Assembly: GCA_023129355.1 (NCBI GenBank) | Contig: JAGMCC010000001.1 | Coordinates: 1 to 28,131 of the forward strand | DNA from: Dehalococcoidia bacterium | Lineage (GTDB): Bacteria > Chloroflexota > Dehalococcoidia > E44-bin15 | Reading direction: 5' to 3' | Length of the DNA: 28,131 nt | In this document: in pieces, positions 5,812-26,987 of the stretch | Numbering within the stretch: the stretch's first letter is position 1 | Layout: every line of letters begins with the position of its first letter | Notes under the pieces: model-generated | The model's input: the letters and a program-made list of their open reading frames with translations, nothing else | The model's database searches: none | Told to the model about the DNA's origin: nothing | Program-made: the position numbers and the translations under genes

Positions 5812-6318
5812 ATGGAGGGGATTGATCACAGCGAATTAGACCTGAATGAGAAACTTGTCAATATAAAGCGCGTGGCCAAGGTGGTGAAAGGAGGGAGGCG
5901 ATTTAGTTTTACTGCATTGGTGGTCGTGGGCGATGGTAATGGGCATGTGGGTGCTGGATTGGGCAGAGCAAAGGAGATACCTGAAGCCATCCGAAAGGGA
6001 GGCACCATTGCTCGCAAACAACTGATCAGCGTGCCGATGAAGGATGGCACCATTCCCTATGAGATAGTGGCCAGGTATGGGGCGGCGAAGGTGCTCCTCA
6101 AGCCAGCAGCTCCGGGAACAGGGTTGATCGCTGGTGGTGGGGTGCGCGCGGTGCTGGAGCTTGCCGGGATCACAGACATCCTCACCAAGTCCCAAGGGAG
6201 CGCTAACAAGATAAACGTGGTGCGAGCCACAGTACTGGGGCTCAGCCAGTTAAGGGATCCTCGGGAGGAGGTGGCGAAGCGAAAGTCGAAGCCCCCGGGT
6301 GAGGTATCCATTGGCTAA
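5812..6318 (+). CDS. rpsE: 30S ribosomal protein uS5
   Basis: [23 protein letters not shown]...[12 protein letters not shown]. Confidence 0.98.
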
Positions 6319-6502
6319 GTTGATAGTCACTTGGGTAAAAAGCGGCATTGGCCACCCTAGGGATCAGAGGCGGACACTCCAGGCTTTAGGGTTTCATCGC
6401 CTGAACCAGACCGTTGAGCACGATGATTCGCCAGCGATTCGTGGGATGATCATGAAGGTAAGGCATCTGGTAACCGTGGAGGAGAGCGGTGAGGCAGAAT
6501 GA
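6311..6502 (+). CDS. rpmD: 50S ribosomal protein uL30
   Basis: TTG at 6311 behind GAGGT; [12 protein letters not shown]...TLQALG...[12 protein letters not shown]. Confidence 0.95.
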
Positions 6503-20539: not shown

Positions 20540-21757
20540 CTAGGCTCGCCCTTTAAGCCCGGCCTCGGCCCTGAGAGTGGCTGCCTTGTCGGTCTTTTCC
20601 CATGGGATATCGATATCGGTGCGACCGAAATGACCGTAGCAGGCGGTCTGCCTATAGATGGGACGCCGTAACTGCATGGACTCAATGATGGCCCCTGGTC
20701 GAAGGTCGAAGTGCTTATGGATCAGGTCAATAATAACATCATCGGGAACCTTCCCGGTGCCGAAGGTCTCTATACAGATGGAGAGGGGGCGTGCTACTCC
20801 GATGGCATAAGAGACCTGGAGTTCGAGGCGATCGGCGAGACCCGCCGCAACCAGGTTCTTGGCGACATATCTTGCCGCATAGGCTGCGGAGCGATCCACT
20901 TTGGTGGGGTCCTTTCCGGAAAAGGCTCCGCCGCCGTGTCTGGCGATACCACCATAGGTATCGACCAGTATCTTACGCCCGGTGAGTCCGGCATCGCCCA
21001 TTGGGCCACCGGTCACGAAGCGACCGGTGGCGTTGACATAAAACTTCGTCCCCTCGTCCATTAAGGCTACGGGAAGAACCGGCTTGATAACATGCTCTAT
21101 GATATCTTGTTTGATGATGTCATGATTGGATTTGGGGTCGTGCTGAGCGGCGATGAGCACGGTATCTATCCGCCTGGGAACGCCTTTAGAATACTCCACC
21201 GTAACCTGTGATTTGCCGTCAGGACGCAGATATTGCAGGGTGCCATCTTTCCTCACCTCGGCGAGGCGGCGGCACAGCTTGTGGGCCAGGGAGATGGTAA
21301 GGGGCATGAGTTCGGGGGTCTCGTTGCAGGCAAAGCCCACCATCATTCCCTGGTCACCAGCGCCCAATGTCTCGATCTCATCCTTGCCGTTCTCTTCTCT
21401 GGTCTCCAGCGCTTTGTCTACCCCCATGGCGATATCCTTTGACTGCTCCTTTATGGAGACCATCACACCGCAGGTTTCGCAGTCAAATCCGTACTTGGCG
21501 CGTGTATAGCCCACATCACGCAACACCTTGCGCACGATGTCCTGTATTTCTACATAGCAGTCGGTGGTAATCTCTCCTAAGACGATAACTAAGCCGGTGG
21601 TCACGGCGGTCTCGCAAGCCACCCTCGCCATCGGGTCGCAGGTCAGGATTTCGTCAAGTACAGCATCGGATATCTGGTCACAGAGCTTGTCGGGATGGCC
21701 TTCAGTAACCGACTCAGAAGTGATAAACAGCGAGGGTGCAGTCATAAAAGTTGTCAT
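20540..21757 (-). CDS. metK: S-adenosylmethionine synthase
   Basis: [49 protein letters not shown]. Confidence 0.99.
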
Positions 21758-21774
21758 TTTGTCTCCTTTTCTAT

Positions 21775-23945
<2,171 letters not shown>

Positions 23946-24001
23946 CCGGTTACCCCTCTCACTCCTTCTTTGCCCGCGATTTCATCAGCTCTGTGTTCAT
24001 A

Positions 24002-24565
24002 TTAACCATCATTTATCGGCGAATCCAGCCATTGGAGCACCTGCTCCAGAACCTCCTGATGATTCGTTCTGGTAACTGTGATGGTAACCACGTTGGGGTG
24101 TTGCTTTATCTGGTCGGCCCAGGGGTGTGAGGAGAGCATGATAGTGCCCAGTACCCTCTTCTCGCTATTTATTGCAGCTAAGACAACTTCCTTGAAATAG
24201 GGTGAAAAAAGTTCCATCTTTCCAATCTCGTCGATCACCACTAGATTGCGATCCCGAGCCGCTTCTCTGATTGCGGCGACGCCCACCCTATCCAATCCTT
24301 CGGTGTCCACGCCATACTTGCTAACCCGATATGGACTTTTAATACCGATATGGGCCAGGATGGCGCTTTGCCCGTCCAGGGTGACGATCCTGAAGCCTTG
24401 CCTTACCCCGCCCGCTCTTATCTCCTCGGTGAAAAATCCCCCTGCCATTGCCTGTCCGCCTTGCGGACTCCGATACATCGCTCGGAGGGACTTGTCTAGT
24501 GCTTGCTTAATAATCGTGGTCTTGCCCACGCCAGGGCCACCGGTGAGAAGATAGGCCTTGCTCAT
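24002..24565 (-). CDS. THEP1/NTPase_1-family nucleoside triphosphatase
   Basis: LTGGPGVGKTT (Walker A), GFFTEEIR...RQGF, VSKYGVD, VVIDEIGKMEL (Walker B). Confidence 0.92.
   Translation of the reverse strand: MSKAYLLTGGPGVGKTTIIKQALDKSLRAMYRSPQGGQAMAGGFFTEEIRAGGVRQGFRIVTLDGQSAILAHIGIKSPYRVSKYGVDTEGLDRVGVAAIREAARDRNLVVIDEIGKMELFSPYFKEVVLAAINSEKRVLGTIMLSSHPWADQIKQHPNVVTITVTRTNHQEVLEQVLQWLDSPINDG
24454..24491. repeat. Double-hairpin palindromic element inside the NTPase CDS
   Basis: GTCCGC-CTT-GCGGAC (24454-24468) followed by TCCGA-TACATCGC-TCGGA (24469-24486); element begins GTCC and ends GGAC. Confidence 0.7.
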
Positions 24566-24651
24566 GCGCCCCTCTCTGCCCTCCTCTTCTCCTTCACCTT
24601 CTTCATTCTCTTGCGATGCTTTAGCTGTGCGACTCTCTTCCTTTTGTTCAT
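24562..24651 (-). CDS. Small basic protein, 29 aa, bS22/mS38-like spacing (missed by ORF track)
   Basis: Hand translation MNKRKRVAQLKHRKRMKKVKEKRRAERGA*; its TGA overlaps the NTPase ATG (ATGA coupling) and it fills an otherwise empty gap. Confidence 0.65.
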   Translation of the reverse strand: MNKRKRVAQLKHRKRMKKVKEKRRAERGA

Positions 24652-24672
24652 ATCACCGCTGAGGAACCTAGA

Positions 24673-24780
24673 TCAATGTTTCGATGCTAAGATGGCTGCT
24701 GCCTCCTTGAGCTTAGCCGGTATATCAAGCTGGGCGGGACAAACCTCTCCACAGGACGCGAACTCATCGCAGAGCGTCAC
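24673..24780 (-). pseudogene. Remnant or mini-ORF with a degenerate 4Fe-4S motif
   Basis: GTG-started frame VTLCDEFASCGEVCPAQLDIPAKLKEAAAILASKH*; CxxFxxCxxxCP, where F is TTC, one base from TGC. Confidence 0.45.
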
Positions 24781-25009
24781 CGGGGCCTCGCTGCTTTCCG
24801 CTGCCGAAAACCTCCACAAATTTAGCGAAGGAGCGATCGTAGGTTCTCTCAACCTCCGGCGGGAAGAGGCAGCCCGGCAGCTCGCCAAGATTTTTATGGT
24901 AGCGGATGCAATCACAGCACTTCCCCTTCCGCTCACAGGGCTCGTAGGTGCAGATGCATCCCTCTTTGTTGGCATTGATGCTACATTCCAAATAATTCGC
25001 TCCCTTCAT
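24764..25009 (-). CDS. Small cysteine-rich protein (DUF6485-like)
   Basis: CICTYEPCERKGKCCDCIRYH...ELPGCLFPPEVERTYDRS; 8 Cys. The start may instead be the TTG at 24991 behind GGGAG. Family name from recall. Confidence 0.75.
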   Translation of the reverse strand: MKGANYLECSINANKEGCICTYEPCERKGKCCDCIRYHKNLGELPGCLFPPEVERTYDRSFAKFVEVFGSGKQRGPGDALR

Positions 25010-25014
25010 TCCTC

Positions 25015-26040
25015 TTAGACATGTCGCTTTCTAAATTCTTTGGAAACACCAGCCAGGAGTTCCAGGGCCCATGCTGCTGCCTCCTCAGAGAGCGACCCCA
25101 GGCCACAGGAGGGGGTAACCAGACACTGCTCTGTTAGCAGGCGGAAACTGACCCCTTTCCGATTAAGTGCTCCTATGGCCTCCTCCAGGCGGTCGATAAG
25201 GCTTTTTACTATCTCACCTTTCAGGTCTTGTTCATCGTGGGGCACTATGCCCCAGGCGATCACGCCACCGCGCTCTAGAAATGCTTTCACCTCTTCAGGA
25301 TAGAGGACAATGGTGTAGCTATAATTATAGGCATCGAAGCTCAGAATGTCGAGGGGTGTGGAAAGCAATATTGACCAATCGGTATTGCCGCAGCAGTGGA
25401 TCCCCTTTAGCCCGCTGATGCCAGAAAAGACCTCCTCCAAAAGGCTTGTTACCTGCTCCCGAGCGAGTGAGACAAAGGCGGAGCCAATGGAGGCCATATA
25501 GGGCTCATCGACGAAGATGATGGTGTTGGGTGAGATAGCCTTAAGCTCCCGTTCCTGCCAGGCCGCCTTTAGATGGAGGTGCTTGGCCAGGGCATCGGCA
25601 AGGGTATCGTCATAGAGGACGGGGCGACGGTTCTCATCGGTCACCGTCAACCCCCAGGTAACCGGCCCGGTCACCTGTCCCTTGGTGGCAAAGGGTGCCC
25701 CAAGCTCCATTTTGAGGAATTCGTGAAGCCCTGCGGCATGGTCAGGGCTTATGGCGTATTTTTCGACCTTGTTCTCTAGATAATAGGCATAGAGCTGCTC
25801 CAGGGGCTTCTCCAGGTCTTTAGCGCGATCGACATAAATTCGATCCCCTTCGATGACCACGCCGGGGAATCCATCGCTGAACTGGGCATACATGTTCTCC
25901 AGGAAGGAGCGTTTGGGCAACTGGGGCCAGGCAGGTATTTCAGGCAAGAACCTAGCCACCAGTGAGCAGGCCTCTTTGGGGTCGGTGTGAGGCATGCTTC
26001 CCACCGCAGTAGCTAGTCCGCTGAGCTCGAATCGGGACAG
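25015..26040 (-). CDS. mesB: Folate-independent core methionine synthase (MetE C-terminal domain only, MesB-like)
   Basis: TAVGSMP, KGQVTGPVT, FVDEP, GIHCCG (HxC), LSFD, IAWGIVP, VTPSCGLG; about 340 aa with no folate-binding half. Start extended from GTG 26004 to CTG 26040. Confidence 0.75.
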   Translation of the reverse strand: MSRFELSGLATAVGSMPHTDPKEACSLVARFLPEIPAWPQLPKRSFLENMYAQFSDGFPGVVIEGDRIYVDRAKDLEKPLEQLYAYYLENKVEKYAISPDHAAGLHEFLKMELGAPFATKGQVTGPVTWGLTVTDENRRPVLYDDTLADALAKHLHLKAAWQERELKAISPNTIIFVDEPYMASIGSAFVSLAREQVTSLLEEVFSGISGLKGIHCCGNTDWSILLSTPLDILSFDAYNYSYTIVLYPEEVKAFLERGGVIAWGIVPHDEQDLKGEIVKSLIDRLEEAIGALNRKGVSFRLLTEQCLVTPSCGLGSLSEEAAAWALELLAGVSKEFRKRHV

Positions 26041-26123
26041 TTTTTCGCTCCTCCCTAAGAAATTCGCCCACAGCTCTACTAATCACTCAGTTAACACTGC
26101 GAGAGCTATTACTGGGGCCACCA

Positions 26124-26987
26124 CTACTTAATATACTTTCCAATCAGAAGTTCTAGATCTTTTTTCATCCGCTCAGGAATCTTCTGCGGAGCGGTGATTA
26201 TTGCATTCTTAAGCGCTTCGGCACATCCGCATTCCCGCTCCTCTGGTATACGTGCCGCGACAAGTCCAATAATTTTCTTTGCCGTGTCGGCATTACGCAG
26301 CAGGTTAGCAAGTGCCATGTCGATGGTTACTGAATCCTCGGTTTCATGCCAGGTATCGTAGTCGGTGATGCAGGCCAGGGTAGCATAGCATATCTCGGCC
26401 TCCCTTGCCAGCTTTGCTTCCGGTAATGCTGTCATACCGATGATACCTGCCCCCCAGGAGCGATAGAGGTTCGATTCCGCCTTTGTGGAGAAAAGTGGCC
26501 CCTCCATCACGATATAGGTACCCTCCTGGTGGACATTGGCTCCCACATCGAGGGCTGCCTGATAGAGTATATTGCTGAGTATCGGGCAGAATGGCTCGGC
26601 GAAGGTGACATGAGCGACCAGACCCTCGCCAAAGAAGCTGTTCACCCGGCTTTTAGTACGGTCGATGAGCTGGTCCGGTATGACAATGTCCAGGGGATGG
26701 ATACCCTCTTTCAAGCTTCCTACCGCATTGACAGAGATGATCCACTCCACGCCCAGCGACTTCAAGGCATAGATATTGGCGCGGGATGGGATCTCGCTGG
26801 GGCTGATGCAGTGTCCCCTGCCATGGCGGGGCAGGAAGGCGATGCTCTTCCCTTCCAGCTCGCCGATAATGATCTCATCGCTGGGCTCGCCGAAGGGCGT
26901 CTTTGGCTTCACCTTCTCGATATTGGTCATCCCCTCGATCTGATAAAGGCCGCTTCCACCAATAACCCCGATCTTGGCTTCAGGCAT
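26124..26987 (-). CDS. mtnP: S-methyl-5'-thioadenosine phosphorylase
   Basis: IGVIGGSG, TPFGEPS, FLPRHG, MEGPLFSTKAES, GMTALPEAKLAREAEICYA, TDYD. Confidence 0.96.
   Translation of the reverse strand: MPEAKIGVIGGSGLYQIEGMTNIEKVKPKTPFGEPSDEIIIGELEGKSIAFLPRHGRGHCISPSEIPSRANIYALKSLGVEWIISVNAVGSLKEGIHPLDIVIPDQLIDRTKSRVNSFFGEGLVAHVTFAEPFCPILSNILYQAALDVGANVHQEGTYIVMEGPLFSTKAESNLYRSWGAGIIGMTALPEAKLAREAEICYATLACITDYDTWHETEDSVTIDMALANLLRNADTAKKIIGLVAARIPEERECGCAEALKNAIITAPQKIPERMKKDLELLIGKYIK

What the first reader, a model, noticed from the sequence alone, without database searches (positions are those of the whole stretch)
24562..24651. Hidden 29-aa basic ORF with the residue pattern of ribosomal protein bS22/mS38
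Seen: MNKRKRVAQLKHRKRMKKVKEKRRAERGA (8 Lys, 7 Arg, 2 Glu), stop overlapping the NTPase start. It has RKR-x4-KHRK-x8-RR. Known (from recall): mycobacterial bS22, [33 protein letters not shown], has the same spacing, and bS22, mS38 and eL41 occupy an equivalent pocket near the decoding centre. Ungapped alignment gives 9 identities including the His, plus matching hydrophobic positions. Inference: a previously unannotated small-subunit protein or RNA-binding peptide in Chloroflexota, placed in a SAM-cycle operon rather than the r-protein operon. Caveats: basic peptides align easily by chance, and the SD-like GGTGAT sits directly against the ATG.
Basis: partly seen in the sequence, partly recalled or inferred. 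Interest (0 to 1): 0.75.

Follow-up and report, generated by a model that had tools for sequence, protein, structure and literature searches.

The report
Conserved tiny basic protein, not bS22
The 29-codon frame is a real, strongly conserved gene for a very basic single-helix mini-protein of an unnamed family found in Chloroflexota and at least two other lineages; it looks like ribosomal protein bS22 but sits in genomes beside the true bS22, so it is a separate protein, probably RNA- or ribosome-binding.

Summary
Observation confirmed. Window 24562..24651 (-) encodes the stated 29-residue peptide (8 K, 7 R, 2 E), and its TGA overlaps the ATG of an NTPase_1 (THEP1-type) gene.

It is a real gene.
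- Orthologues sit at the same operon position in many Dehalococcoidia.
- Synonymous changes are near saturation while replacements are few (pN/pS about 0.27).
- The N-terminal motif MNK+K+VAxxKH occurs in about 56 of 150 sampled Chloroflexota genomes, and in Dormiibacterota and Ignavibacteria. Short variants turn up in MAGs labelled Paceibacterota and Proteobacteria.
- The family has no Pfam or NCBIfam model. Where it has been called, it is named 'hypothetical protein'.

The bS22 reading is only partly right.
- PF08213, NF047430 and both bL37 models miss it.
- The 9 identities to M. smegmatis bS22 are reached by 25% of shuffles.
- Profile-profile scores of 14-19 beat 97-99% of shuffles. That is the same size as the score between the two structure-proven bS22 types.
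- Canonical bS22 co-occurs with this gene in at least 16 Chloroflexota genomes, sometimes on the same contig. Ignavibacteria carry the Flavobacterium-type bS22 as well.

So it is not the bS22 orthologue. It is either a paralogue or an analogous RNA-binding micro-protein. It has been lost in some close relatives.

Earlier notes of this scan describe what is probably the same family on other DNA.

The parts
24562..24651 (-). Gene for a 29-residue hyper-basic single-helix micro-protein (stop codon included). Family motif M1 N2 K3 x K5 x V7 A8 x x K11 H12.
   Evidence: ORF and translation. Conservation and synteny. Invariant columns. pN/pS about 0.27. AF2 helix over residues 3-33 with pLDDT 92.9, modelled on a 34-aa family member.
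24652..24657 (-). GGTGAT directly 5' of the ATG. A Shine-Dalgarno-like stretch complementary to the AUCACC part of the usual 16S 3' end (inference).
   Evidence: Sequence. Relatives carry purine-rich GGAG/GGGG/GAGA stretches 3-12 nt upstream of the start.
24562..24565 (-). ATGA overlap: the stop of the micro-gene overlaps the start of the NTPase gene, a translational coupling junction.
   Evidence: The same ATGA junction is kept in 12 of 18 orthologous loci (11 onto the NTPase gene, 1 onto PfkB); the other 6 have a gap of about 10-20 nt.
24002..24565 (-). Downstream gene: a 187-aa NTPase_1 / THEP1-type P-loop NTPase.
   Evidence: PF03266, E 5.6e-44. Syntenic in most Dehalococcoidia loci.
24673..25009 (-). 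Upstream neighbours: the Cys-rich DUF6485 gene (24764..25009) and an overlapping frame (24673..24975). The conserved C-terminal coding stretch of that frame ends 21 nt before the micro-gene.
   Evidence: PF20095. The conserved '..AAIL(G/A)S' coding end in relatives explains the TAGGGTC-like motif upstream of the micro-gene.
20540..26987 (-). Surrounding co-directional SAM/methionine-salvage cluster: MTAP-like phosphorylase, a 329-aa protein without a Pfam match, DUF6485, the micro-gene, NTPase_1, PfkB kinase, AdoHcy hydrolase and SAM synthetase.

Best explanation
SHOWN. Window 24562..24651 (-) is a translated, selected gene for a roughly 30-residue peptide with net charge about +13, predicted to be one continuous alpha-helix. 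It belongs to an unnamed family with N-terminal signature MNK(R/T/K)K(R/K)VAxxKH(R/L)K followed by a variable basic tail. A few lineages add a 70-190-residue Lys/Ala/Pro/Glu-rich tail. The family is spread through Chloroflexota (Dehalococcoidia, Ktedonobacteria, Chloroflexia, Limnocylindrales), Dormiibacterota and Ignavibacteria. Its neighbours differ from lineage to lineage, so it works as a stand-alone protein, not as a leader peptide or a fixed partner of the SAM-cycle genes. It is not the orthologue of bS22, because genuine bS22 of either known type is encoded elsewhere in many of the same genomes.

INFERRED. The conserved N-terminal 14 residues are a contact module for structured RNA. The most likely role is an accessory peptide embedded in a ribosomal RNA pocket, in the manner of bS22, eL41, bL37 or Thx. 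It may be an old paralogue of bS22. In the window's order of Dehalococcoidia its synthesis is tied to the operon and coupled to the NTPase_1 gene through the ATGA overlap. It is dispensable, since close relatives have lost it.

The confidence given (0.45) is for the inferred ribosome/rRNA-binding mechanism. The shown part (real gene, distinct family, not the bS22 orthologue) I hold at about 0.9.
For: - Real gene: 26 of 41 relatives have it at the same operon position. In L001 vs L003 there are 10 synonymous and 3 replacement changes. Summed pN/pS is 0.27, and entropy is highest at codon position 3.
- Family size: 255 clusters at 90% identity and 188 representatives at 50%.
- Specificity: all 120 loci returned by a degenerate DNA pattern scan of GTDB genomes open a short basic ORF, mostly 25-52 codons and a few with long tails.
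- Phylum sample: 56 of 150 genomes at E<=1e-3.
- Variable neighbours: TPR and PucR regulator; response regulator; Lon_C; DeoC and EamA; PP-loop ATPase.
- Structure: a single helix with pLDDT 92.9.
- Similarity to bS22 profiles in one consistent register: hhalign 19.4, reached by 1/300 and 3/300 shuffles. With a 149-sequence profile the score is 14.3 against the mycobacterial type (6/200) and 15.7 against the Flavobacterium type (3/200).
- The two structure-proven bS22 types score only 15.9 against each other.
- Proven bS22 of F. johnsoniae and B. burgdorferi also match no Pfam or NCBIfam model.
- Precedent: unannotated bS22 genes were found only by cryo-EM (PMC10618245, PMC7797042).
Against: - No experimental link to ribosomes exists.
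- There is no conserved neighbourhood with translation genes.
- bS22 and bL37 models all miss it, as does a PDB profile search.
- The profile-profile signal is marginal (p about 0.003-0.03) and comes from short low-complexity helices.
- Co-occurrence with bS22 shows no sign of exclusion: 16 genomes observed against 13.4 expected. Two peptides for one pocket is therefore unlikely unless they alternate.
- The gene has decayed or been deleted in close relatives that keep the operon.
- The Lys/Ala/Pro-rich long tails would fit a DNA-binding, histone-H1-like protein equally well.
Confidence: 0.45

Rival explanations
1. It is a true member (third branch) of the bS22/mS38 superfamily. It binds the same h44/h45 pocket near the decoding centre, either replacing bS22 where bS22 is missing (as in the window's own family) or alternating with it under some conditions.
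For: - The window peptide has the same RKR-x4-KHRK-x8-RR spacing as bS22.
- The three-way register is consistent: family V7-A8 aligns with M/V12-S/A13 of both bS22 types, and K11-H12 aligns with K16-H17.
- hhalign scores equal the score between the two accepted bS22 types.
- The window's own family shows no PF08213 match over the cut-off in 24 genomes, while 17 of 24 carry this gene.
- The protein atlas places a COX24_C cluster among the nearest named neighbours, but at 0.79, which is a lead only.
Against: - PF08213 and NF047430 give no match at E<=10.
- The peptide lacks the MGSV(I/L)KK N-terminus.
- It co-occurs with canonical bS22 in at least 16 of 150 Chloroflexota genomes, three times on the same contig (G035 C12, G142 C2, G177 C6).
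- It co-occurs with the Flavobacterium-type bS22 in three Ignavibacteria and one Bacteroidota MAG, and with a PF08213 hit in a Dormiibacterota MAG.
- The distribution shows no anticorrelation.
- The single-sequence identity is at chance level.
Confidence: 0.2
2. It is a general nucleic-acid-binding polycation acting off the ribosome, for example a nucleoid-associated, DNA- or tRNA-binding peptide.
For: - Extreme charge, a single helix and no conserved partner genes.
- Variants carry long Lys/Ala/Pro/Glu-rich tails reminiscent of histone-H1-like bacterial DNA binders.
- The gene is dispensable in close relatives.
Against: - The invariant, position-specific N-terminal motif (M1 N2 K3 A8 K11 H12 in 28 of 28 diverse members) argues for one specific docking site, not unspecific charge binding.
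- No known DNA-binding family matched.
Confidence: 0.2
3. It is a functional partner, regulator or translational-coupling device for the NTPase_1 (THEP1) gene and the SAM-cycle operon.
For: - The ATGA overlap with the NTPase gene is kept in 11 of 18 orthologous loci.
- The position between the 329-aa/DUF6485 genes and NTPase_1 is conserved across the order and in parts of the class.
Against: - Outside Dehalococcoidia the gene has entirely different neighbours and no NTPase_1 next to it.
- In L022 it is followed by PfkB instead.
- G017 and G019 keep the operon and the NTPase without the micro-gene, and genus g8 keeps only a decayed copy.
- Conservation is at the amino-acid level, unlike a pure coupling ORF.
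Confidence: 0.1
4. It is a chance ORF, or a nucleotide-level element (RNA structure or opposite-strand gene), and not a protein gene.
For: The ORF is very short. Long spurious frames exist on the opposite strand.
Against: - Variation is biased to third codon positions and replacement rates are low.
- The start and the length are conserved across phyla.
- There is no Rfam match.
Confidence: 0.01

Closest known systems
bS22, mycobacterial type (Pfam PF08213 COX24_C, NCBIfam NF047430; M. smegmatis 33 aa, PDB 5o5j; mitochondrial mS38/AURKAIP1/Cox24)
   Same: About 30 residues, pI above 12, helical, and a stand-alone gene with patchy distribution. bS22 is dispensable in M. smegmatis (PMC10081302). 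The window peptide shares the basic-x-basic-basic / hydrophobic-small / x2 / K-H-R-K core spacing. Profile-profile score is 14-19 in one register.
   Different: No match to either curated model. The MGSV(I/L)KK N-terminus and the C-terminal R-W/V-Q-R-R are missing. It starts with an invariant MNK. It is encoded in addition to true bS22 in many genomes, so it is not the orthologue.
bS22, Flavobacterium/Borrelia type (Fjoh_1533, bb0822; PMC7797042, PMC10618245)
   Same: Tiny, hyper-basic, overlooked or called 'hypothetical' by annotation pipelines, and unmatched by Pfam and NCBIfam. Shares a K-V-A / K-I-S core. hhalign score 15.7, reached by 3 of 200 shuffles.
   Different: The His lies two residues closer to the V-A pair in that type. 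Ignavibacteria and a Bacteroidota MAG carry both that protein (76-86% identical to Fjoh_1533) and a member of this family at separate loci.
bL37 (NF047428 mycobacterial, NF047429 planctomycete) and the N-terminal extension of Borrelia uL30
   Same: Small basic helix with an M-x-K-R start. By eye it shows 7 of 14 identities to the Borrelia uL30 extension. uL30 in this window is the short form, as in mycobacteria, which have a separate bL37.
   Different: No model match. hhalign gives no signal above shuffles.
eL41 / Thx class of rRNA-embedded micro-proteins
   Same: Same physical kind: a peptide of 25-40 residues, more than 50% Lys and Arg, presumably folding only on RNA.
   Different: No detectable sequence relationship. 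One family member hits PF05162 at E 5.5 only.
DUF6800 (PF20607)
   Same: Small basic proteins of Chloroflexota. Atlas clusters nearest to this family contain 12-19% of members flagged DUF6800.
   Different: None of the 28 family members nor the own genome match PF20607. True DUF6800 proteins of another Chloroflexota family are about 55 residues with a different sequence. hhalign gives no signal.

Membership tests
bS22 / mS38 (PF08213, NF047430) | Match to the curated family profile over its cut-off | tested here: not met
   hmmscan of the peptide gave no family at E<=10. Six-frame search of the own genome with PF08213 and NF047430 gave no match at E<=10. None of 28 diverse family members match. 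Positive controls score 39-63 bits.
bS22 / mS38 (PF08213, NF047430) | Being the single bS22-type gene of the genome (orthology) | tested here: not met
   The gene co-occurs with canonical bS22 at other loci in G039, G124, G142, G178, G041, G051, G066, G068, G071, G089, G094, G112, G123, G132, G177 and G186, and in G034, G035 and G037. It co-occurs with the Flavobacterium type in Ignavibacteria.
bS22 / mS38 (PF08213, NF047430) | Conserved core K/R-K/R-x-K-M-x-K-x-K-H/Y-R/K-K in register, better than composition-matched shuffles | tested here: inconclusive
   hhalign 19.4 (1/300 and 3/300 shuffles). With the broad profile 14.3 (6/200). The positive control between the two accepted bS22 types is 15.9. 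Single-sequence identity is at chance level.
bS22 / mS38 (PF08213, NF047430) | About 30-residue, hyper-basic, helical peptide | tested here: met
   29 aa with 15 K+R. AF2 gives a single helix, pLDDT 92.9.
bS22 / mS38 (PF08213, NF047430) | Sits between 16S h44/h45 at the subunit interface | not testable with these tools
   No ribosome structure from any carrier is in the PDB as far as a profile search sees.
bL37 (NF047428, NF047429) | Match to a curated profile, or profile-profile similarity | tested here: not met
   No match at E<=10 in the own genome. hhalign vs M. smegmatis bL37 scores 6.2, reached by 179 of 200 shuffles.
DUF6800 (PF20607) | Match to the Pfam profile | tested here: not met
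Leader peptide / regulatory upstream ORF of the SAM-cycle operon | Exists only in front of the regulated genes, with the peptide sequence itself not conserved | tested here: not met
   Amino-acid-level purifying selection. The same protein is encoded next to unrelated genes in other classes and phyla.

The most novel reading that the evidence does not exclude
The MNK+K+VAxxKH family is a so far unnamed ribosomal (or ribosome-associated) micro-protein. It would be either a third, paralogous branch of the bS22/mS38/eL41 line or the occupant of another rRNA pocket. It is present in Chloroflexota, Dormiibacterota, Ignavibacteria and possibly some CPR bacteria, and it co-exists with bS22.
Probability: 0.3. 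Interest if true: 0.8.

Novelty: new variant of a known kind. Interest (0 to 1): 0.55.

Why it matters
New bacterial ribosomal micro-proteins (bS22, bL37, bL38) have so far been found only by chance in cryo-EM maps, because gene callers and family libraries miss them.

This report defines a family from sequence alone. Its N-terminus is invariant across at least three lineages, and it is present in cultured strains (Thermogemmatispora, Dictyobacter, Ktedonospora, Dehalogenimonas-like genomes). That makes the question directly testable by top-down mass spectrometry or cryo-EM of their ribosomes.

If the peptide is ribosomal, it would add a component to the ribosomes of a major but structurally unexplored phylum. 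It would also show that the bS22-like solution evolved, or duplicated, more than once.

If it is not ribosomal, it is still one of the most conserved unnamed micro-proteins of Chloroflexota.

The work also corrects the tempting shortcut that it 'looks like bS22, hence is bS22'.

Tried and rejected
- Pfam and NCBIfam scans of the peptide and of 28 family members found nothing useful.
- PDB sequence searches with the peptide and with the family profile found only a chance repeat protein at E 0.9.
- bL37 and the Borrelia uL30 N-extension looked similar by eye, but hhalign shows no signal and the models miss.
- DUF6800 was suggested by the protein atlas. It proved to be a different ~55-residue family.
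- Replacement of bS21 is rejected: bS21 is present in the own genome and in other carriers.
- The upstream 'TAGGGTC' motif is not a promoter. It is the conserved 3' coding end of the upstream frame. The consensus promoter/terminator scan found nothing on the minus strand.
- There is no riboswitch or other Rfam family in the window.
- Foldseek of the AF2 helix against the PDB gave no match, as expected for a single helix.
- The search for related loci could not use the alignment, so a degenerate DNA pattern was used instead.
- Exact look-ups of the long-tailed and cultured-strain versions were not in the protein collection, so no locus tags were obtained for a proteomics literature search.

Full report
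**1. The observation**

On the minus strand, window 24651..24562 reads ATG ... The composition is 8 Lys, 7 Arg and 2 Glu. The TGA shares its last bases with the ATG of the next gene (ATGA). That gene is a 187-aa NTPase_1/THEP1-type P-loop protein (PF03266, E 5.6e-44). GGTGAT lies directly 5' of the start at 24657..24652. The RKR-x4-KHRK-x8-RR spacing is shared. The best ungapped alignment gives 9 identities at offset 5, but 25% of shuffles of the peptide do as well.

**2. It is a real gene**

- A six-frame search of 41 related genomes found the peptide in 26 of them, almost always as a 26-41-codon frame beginning MNKRKRVA..KHRK.
- In the window's family and order it keeps one position in a co-directional cluster. 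The cluster runs MTAP-like phosphorylase, a 329-aa protein without Pfam match, DUF6485, micro-gene, NTPase_1, PfkB kinase, AdoHcy hydrolase, SAM synthetase.
- Among 18 orthologues, synonymous sites are near saturation while replacements are few. For example, L001 vs L003 shows 10 synonymous and 3 non-synonymous differences. Summed pN/pS is 0.27, and column entropy by codon position is 0.49, 0.49 and 0.84.
- Selection thus acts on the protein in this frame.

**3. Extent of the family**

- A profile search of 5.8 billion proteins returned 255 clusters. All are unnamed or 'hypothetical protein', and none has a Pfam domain.
- An exhaustive HMMER search of 1.84 billion representatives gave 188 hits at E<=0.001.
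- In an even sample of 150 other Chloroflexota genomes, 56 have a match at E<=1e-3, across many families and genome sizes from 1.7 to 7 Mb.
Every one opens a short basic ORF, mostly 25-52 codons with a few long-tailed forms.
- The record titles name Dehalococcoidia, Ktedonobacteria (including cultured Dictyobacter, Thermogemmatispora and Ktedonospora), Chloroflexia and Limnocylindrales.
- Outside the phylum they name Candidatus Dormiibacterota (a 27-28-aa form), several independent Ignavibacteria MAGs (a 32-33-aa form) and a Bacteroidota MAG.
- A 25-26-aa form appears in MAGs labelled Paceibacterota and Gammaproteobacteria and in an unclassified bacterial MAG. Bin labels of single MAGs should be read with care.
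- In 28 diverse members M1, N2, K3, A8, K11 and H12 are invariant, and K5, V7 and K18 nearly so.
- AlphaFold2 with this alignment predicts one helix over residues 3-33 at pLDDT 92.9.
- Some lineages append a long Lys/Ala/Pro/Glu-rich tail. These include two complete 1.7-1.9 Mb genomes of the same class.

**4. Context outside the window's lineage**

Neighbours are conserved within lineages but unrelated between them:

- a TPR protein and a PucR-type regulator in Ktedonobacteria and Chloroflexia
- a response regulator or a Lon_C/PDZ protein elsewhere in the phylum
- DeoC aldolase and an EamA transporter in Ignavibacteria
- a PP-loop ATPase or DivIC in Dormiibacterota

No translation genes recur. 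The protein therefore acts on its own. The SAM-cycle and NTPase association is a property of Dehalococcoidia only. Within that group the ATGA overlap is kept in 12 of 18 loci, 11 of them onto the NTPase gene. That implies coupled translation there.

**5. Is it bS22?**

Library tests fail.

- PF08213, NF047430 and both bL37 models (NF047428, NF047429) give nothing at E<=10, for the peptide or for the own genome in six frames.
- The family profile finds no bS22 or mS38 chain in the PDB.
- These negatives are weak on their own. The cryo-EM-proven bS22 of F. johnsoniae and B. burgdorferi (sequences from PMC10618245, supplementary note 1) also match no model.

I therefore collected canonical bS22 genes from Chloroflexota itself. 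PF08213 is over its cut-off in 31 of 151 genomes, typically M/L/V-GSVIKKR+KKM.KHKH+K.L+.TRWQRR and often with TTG or GTG starts. I then ran profile-profile comparisons with column-shuffled controls.

- The first family profile scores 19.4 against bS22 (probability 56%, P 1e-4). Only 1 of 300 and 3 of 300 shuffles reach that score.
- With a broader 149-sequence profile the score falls to 14.3 (6 of 200). Against the Flavobacterium/Borrelia type it is 15.7 in the same register (3 of 200).
- The two accepted bS22 types score 15.9 against each other.
- bL37, the Borrelia uL30 extension and DUF6800 give no signal.

Sequence alone can neither establish nor exclude a distant relationship.

**6. The decisive point is distribution**

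- Canonical bS22 and this gene lie at different loci of the same genome in at least 16 of the 150 sampled Chloroflexota. Independence would predict 13.4.
- The same holds in G034, G035 and G037 among the relatives.
- In G035, G142 and G177 both genes are on one contig, which excludes binning artefacts.
- G039 has the canonical gene and, at the syntenic operon position, a long-tailed member of this family.
- Three Ignavibacteria genomes and a Bacteroidota MAG that carry the family also encode a protein 76-86% identical to F. johnsoniae bS22 at a separate locus.
- A Dormiibacterota genome also has a PF08213 hit of 33.6 bits.

The family is therefore not the bS22 orthologue of these organisms. 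It is a separate protein, at most an old paralogue. In the window's own family no canonical bS22 was found in 24 genomes. A substitute role there cannot be excluded.

**7. Dispensability**

- In genus g8 of the same family both species keep only a decayed copy at the syntenic site. The two copies share a TAA at codon 10 and have lost N2 and K11-H12.
- G017 has the DUF6485 gene abutting the NTPase gene with no micro-gene between them.
- G019 has unrelated sequence at that position.
- bS22 itself is dispensable in M. smegmatis (PMC10081302), so this does not argue against a ribosomal role. It does mark the protein as accessory.

**8. Mechanism**

Shown:

- a selected, stand-alone, hyper-basic helix
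- an invariant N-terminal module
- a variable tail
- translational coupling to NTPase_1 in one order

Inferred:

- Such a peptide is unlikely to fold on its own, so it most plausibly binds a specific structured nucleic acid.
- The precise, phylum-spanning conservation of 6-9 positions favours one fixed docking site such as an rRNA pocket over unspecific charge binding.
- In the bS22 register the invariant K11 corresponds to bS22 Lys-16, which contacts the h44 backbone (PMC10081302). This is a lead, not a test.

I put the ribosome- or rRNA-bound reading at about 0.45, of which about 0.2 is a bS22 paralogue in the same pocket. A non-ribosomal nucleic-acid binder is about 0.2. An NTPase or operon-specific role is about 0.1. 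The remainder is unknown.

**9. Novelty and earlier notes**

No Pfam or NCBIfam model and no paper found here describes the family. Earlier notes of this scan describe what is very probably the same family on other DNA.

- e1-1163035 describes a basic micro-ORF upstream of THEP1 in a Dehalococcoidia SAM operon.
- e1-1474413 describes a 32-codon gene of an unnamed Chloroflexota family.
- It also adds that the family co-exists with both known bS22 types, and that its similarity to bS22 equals the similarity between those two types.

Noticed in passing
window 24673..25009 (-): The DUF6485 Cys-rich gene (24764..25009) is overlapped by a second frame (24673..24975). The C-terminal stretch of that frame (..CP.QLDIPAKLKEAAAIL..) is conserved at the amino-acid level in relatives and ends 21 nt before the micro-gene. 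This may be a frameshifted or two-frame gene. Another first-reader note (e1-5316429) concerns it.
   Followed up: partly
L023 (G009) and L025 (G023), about 90 nt upstream of the NTPase start: A decayed copy of the micro-gene is shared by two species of one genus. Both have the same TAA at codon 10 and have lost the invariant N2 and K11-H12, so this is an inherited pseudogene. G017 (L209) has a clean deletion.
   Followed up: yes
L192 (G095), L193 (G107), L027 (G039), L194 (G142), L014/L133, L075, L127, L143: These are long-tailed members of the family: the conserved 25-residue head followed by 70-190 residues rich in Lys, Ala, Pro and Glu, like histone H1. They include two complete 1.7-1.9 Mb genomes of the same class.
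   Followed up: partly
L030, L034, L035, L038-L048 (canonical bS22 loci of Chloroflexota): Canonical bS22 genes of Chloroflexota mostly start with TTG or GTG and lie in frames open far upstream. This probably explains why annotation misses them. Family f41 has a variant ending ..KYRRR.. that scores below the Pfam cut-off.
   Followed up: partly
window 25015..26004 (-): A 329-aa protein has no Pfam match at E<=0.001 yet is strongly conserved (50-96% identity) next to the MTAP-like phosphorylase in the SAM/methionine-salvage cluster across the class.
   Followed up: no
L083, L094, L107, L151, L179: A 25-26-residue sub-type (MNK+KKVA.+KH.K..GK+..SLRH/VRY) occurs in MAGs labelled Paceibacterota, Gammaproteobacteria or unclassified. 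It may be a candidate-phyla-radiation branch of the family, and the bin labels are uncertain.
   Followed up: no
L195-L198 (Chloroflexota family f26): True DUF6800 (PF20607) proteins are about 55-residue basic proteins ending ..KI.+I.PF..IP... They occur in a Chloroflexota family where the MNK family was hardly found (1 weak hit in 9 genomes).
   Followed up: partly
window 6299..6502 (+): uL30 in the ribosomal-protein operon of this window is the short form, without the N-terminal helical extension described for Borrelia. No bS22 gene lies in this genome's S10/spc operon region, unlike the Dehalococcoidia group of note e1-3522692.
   Followed up: partly
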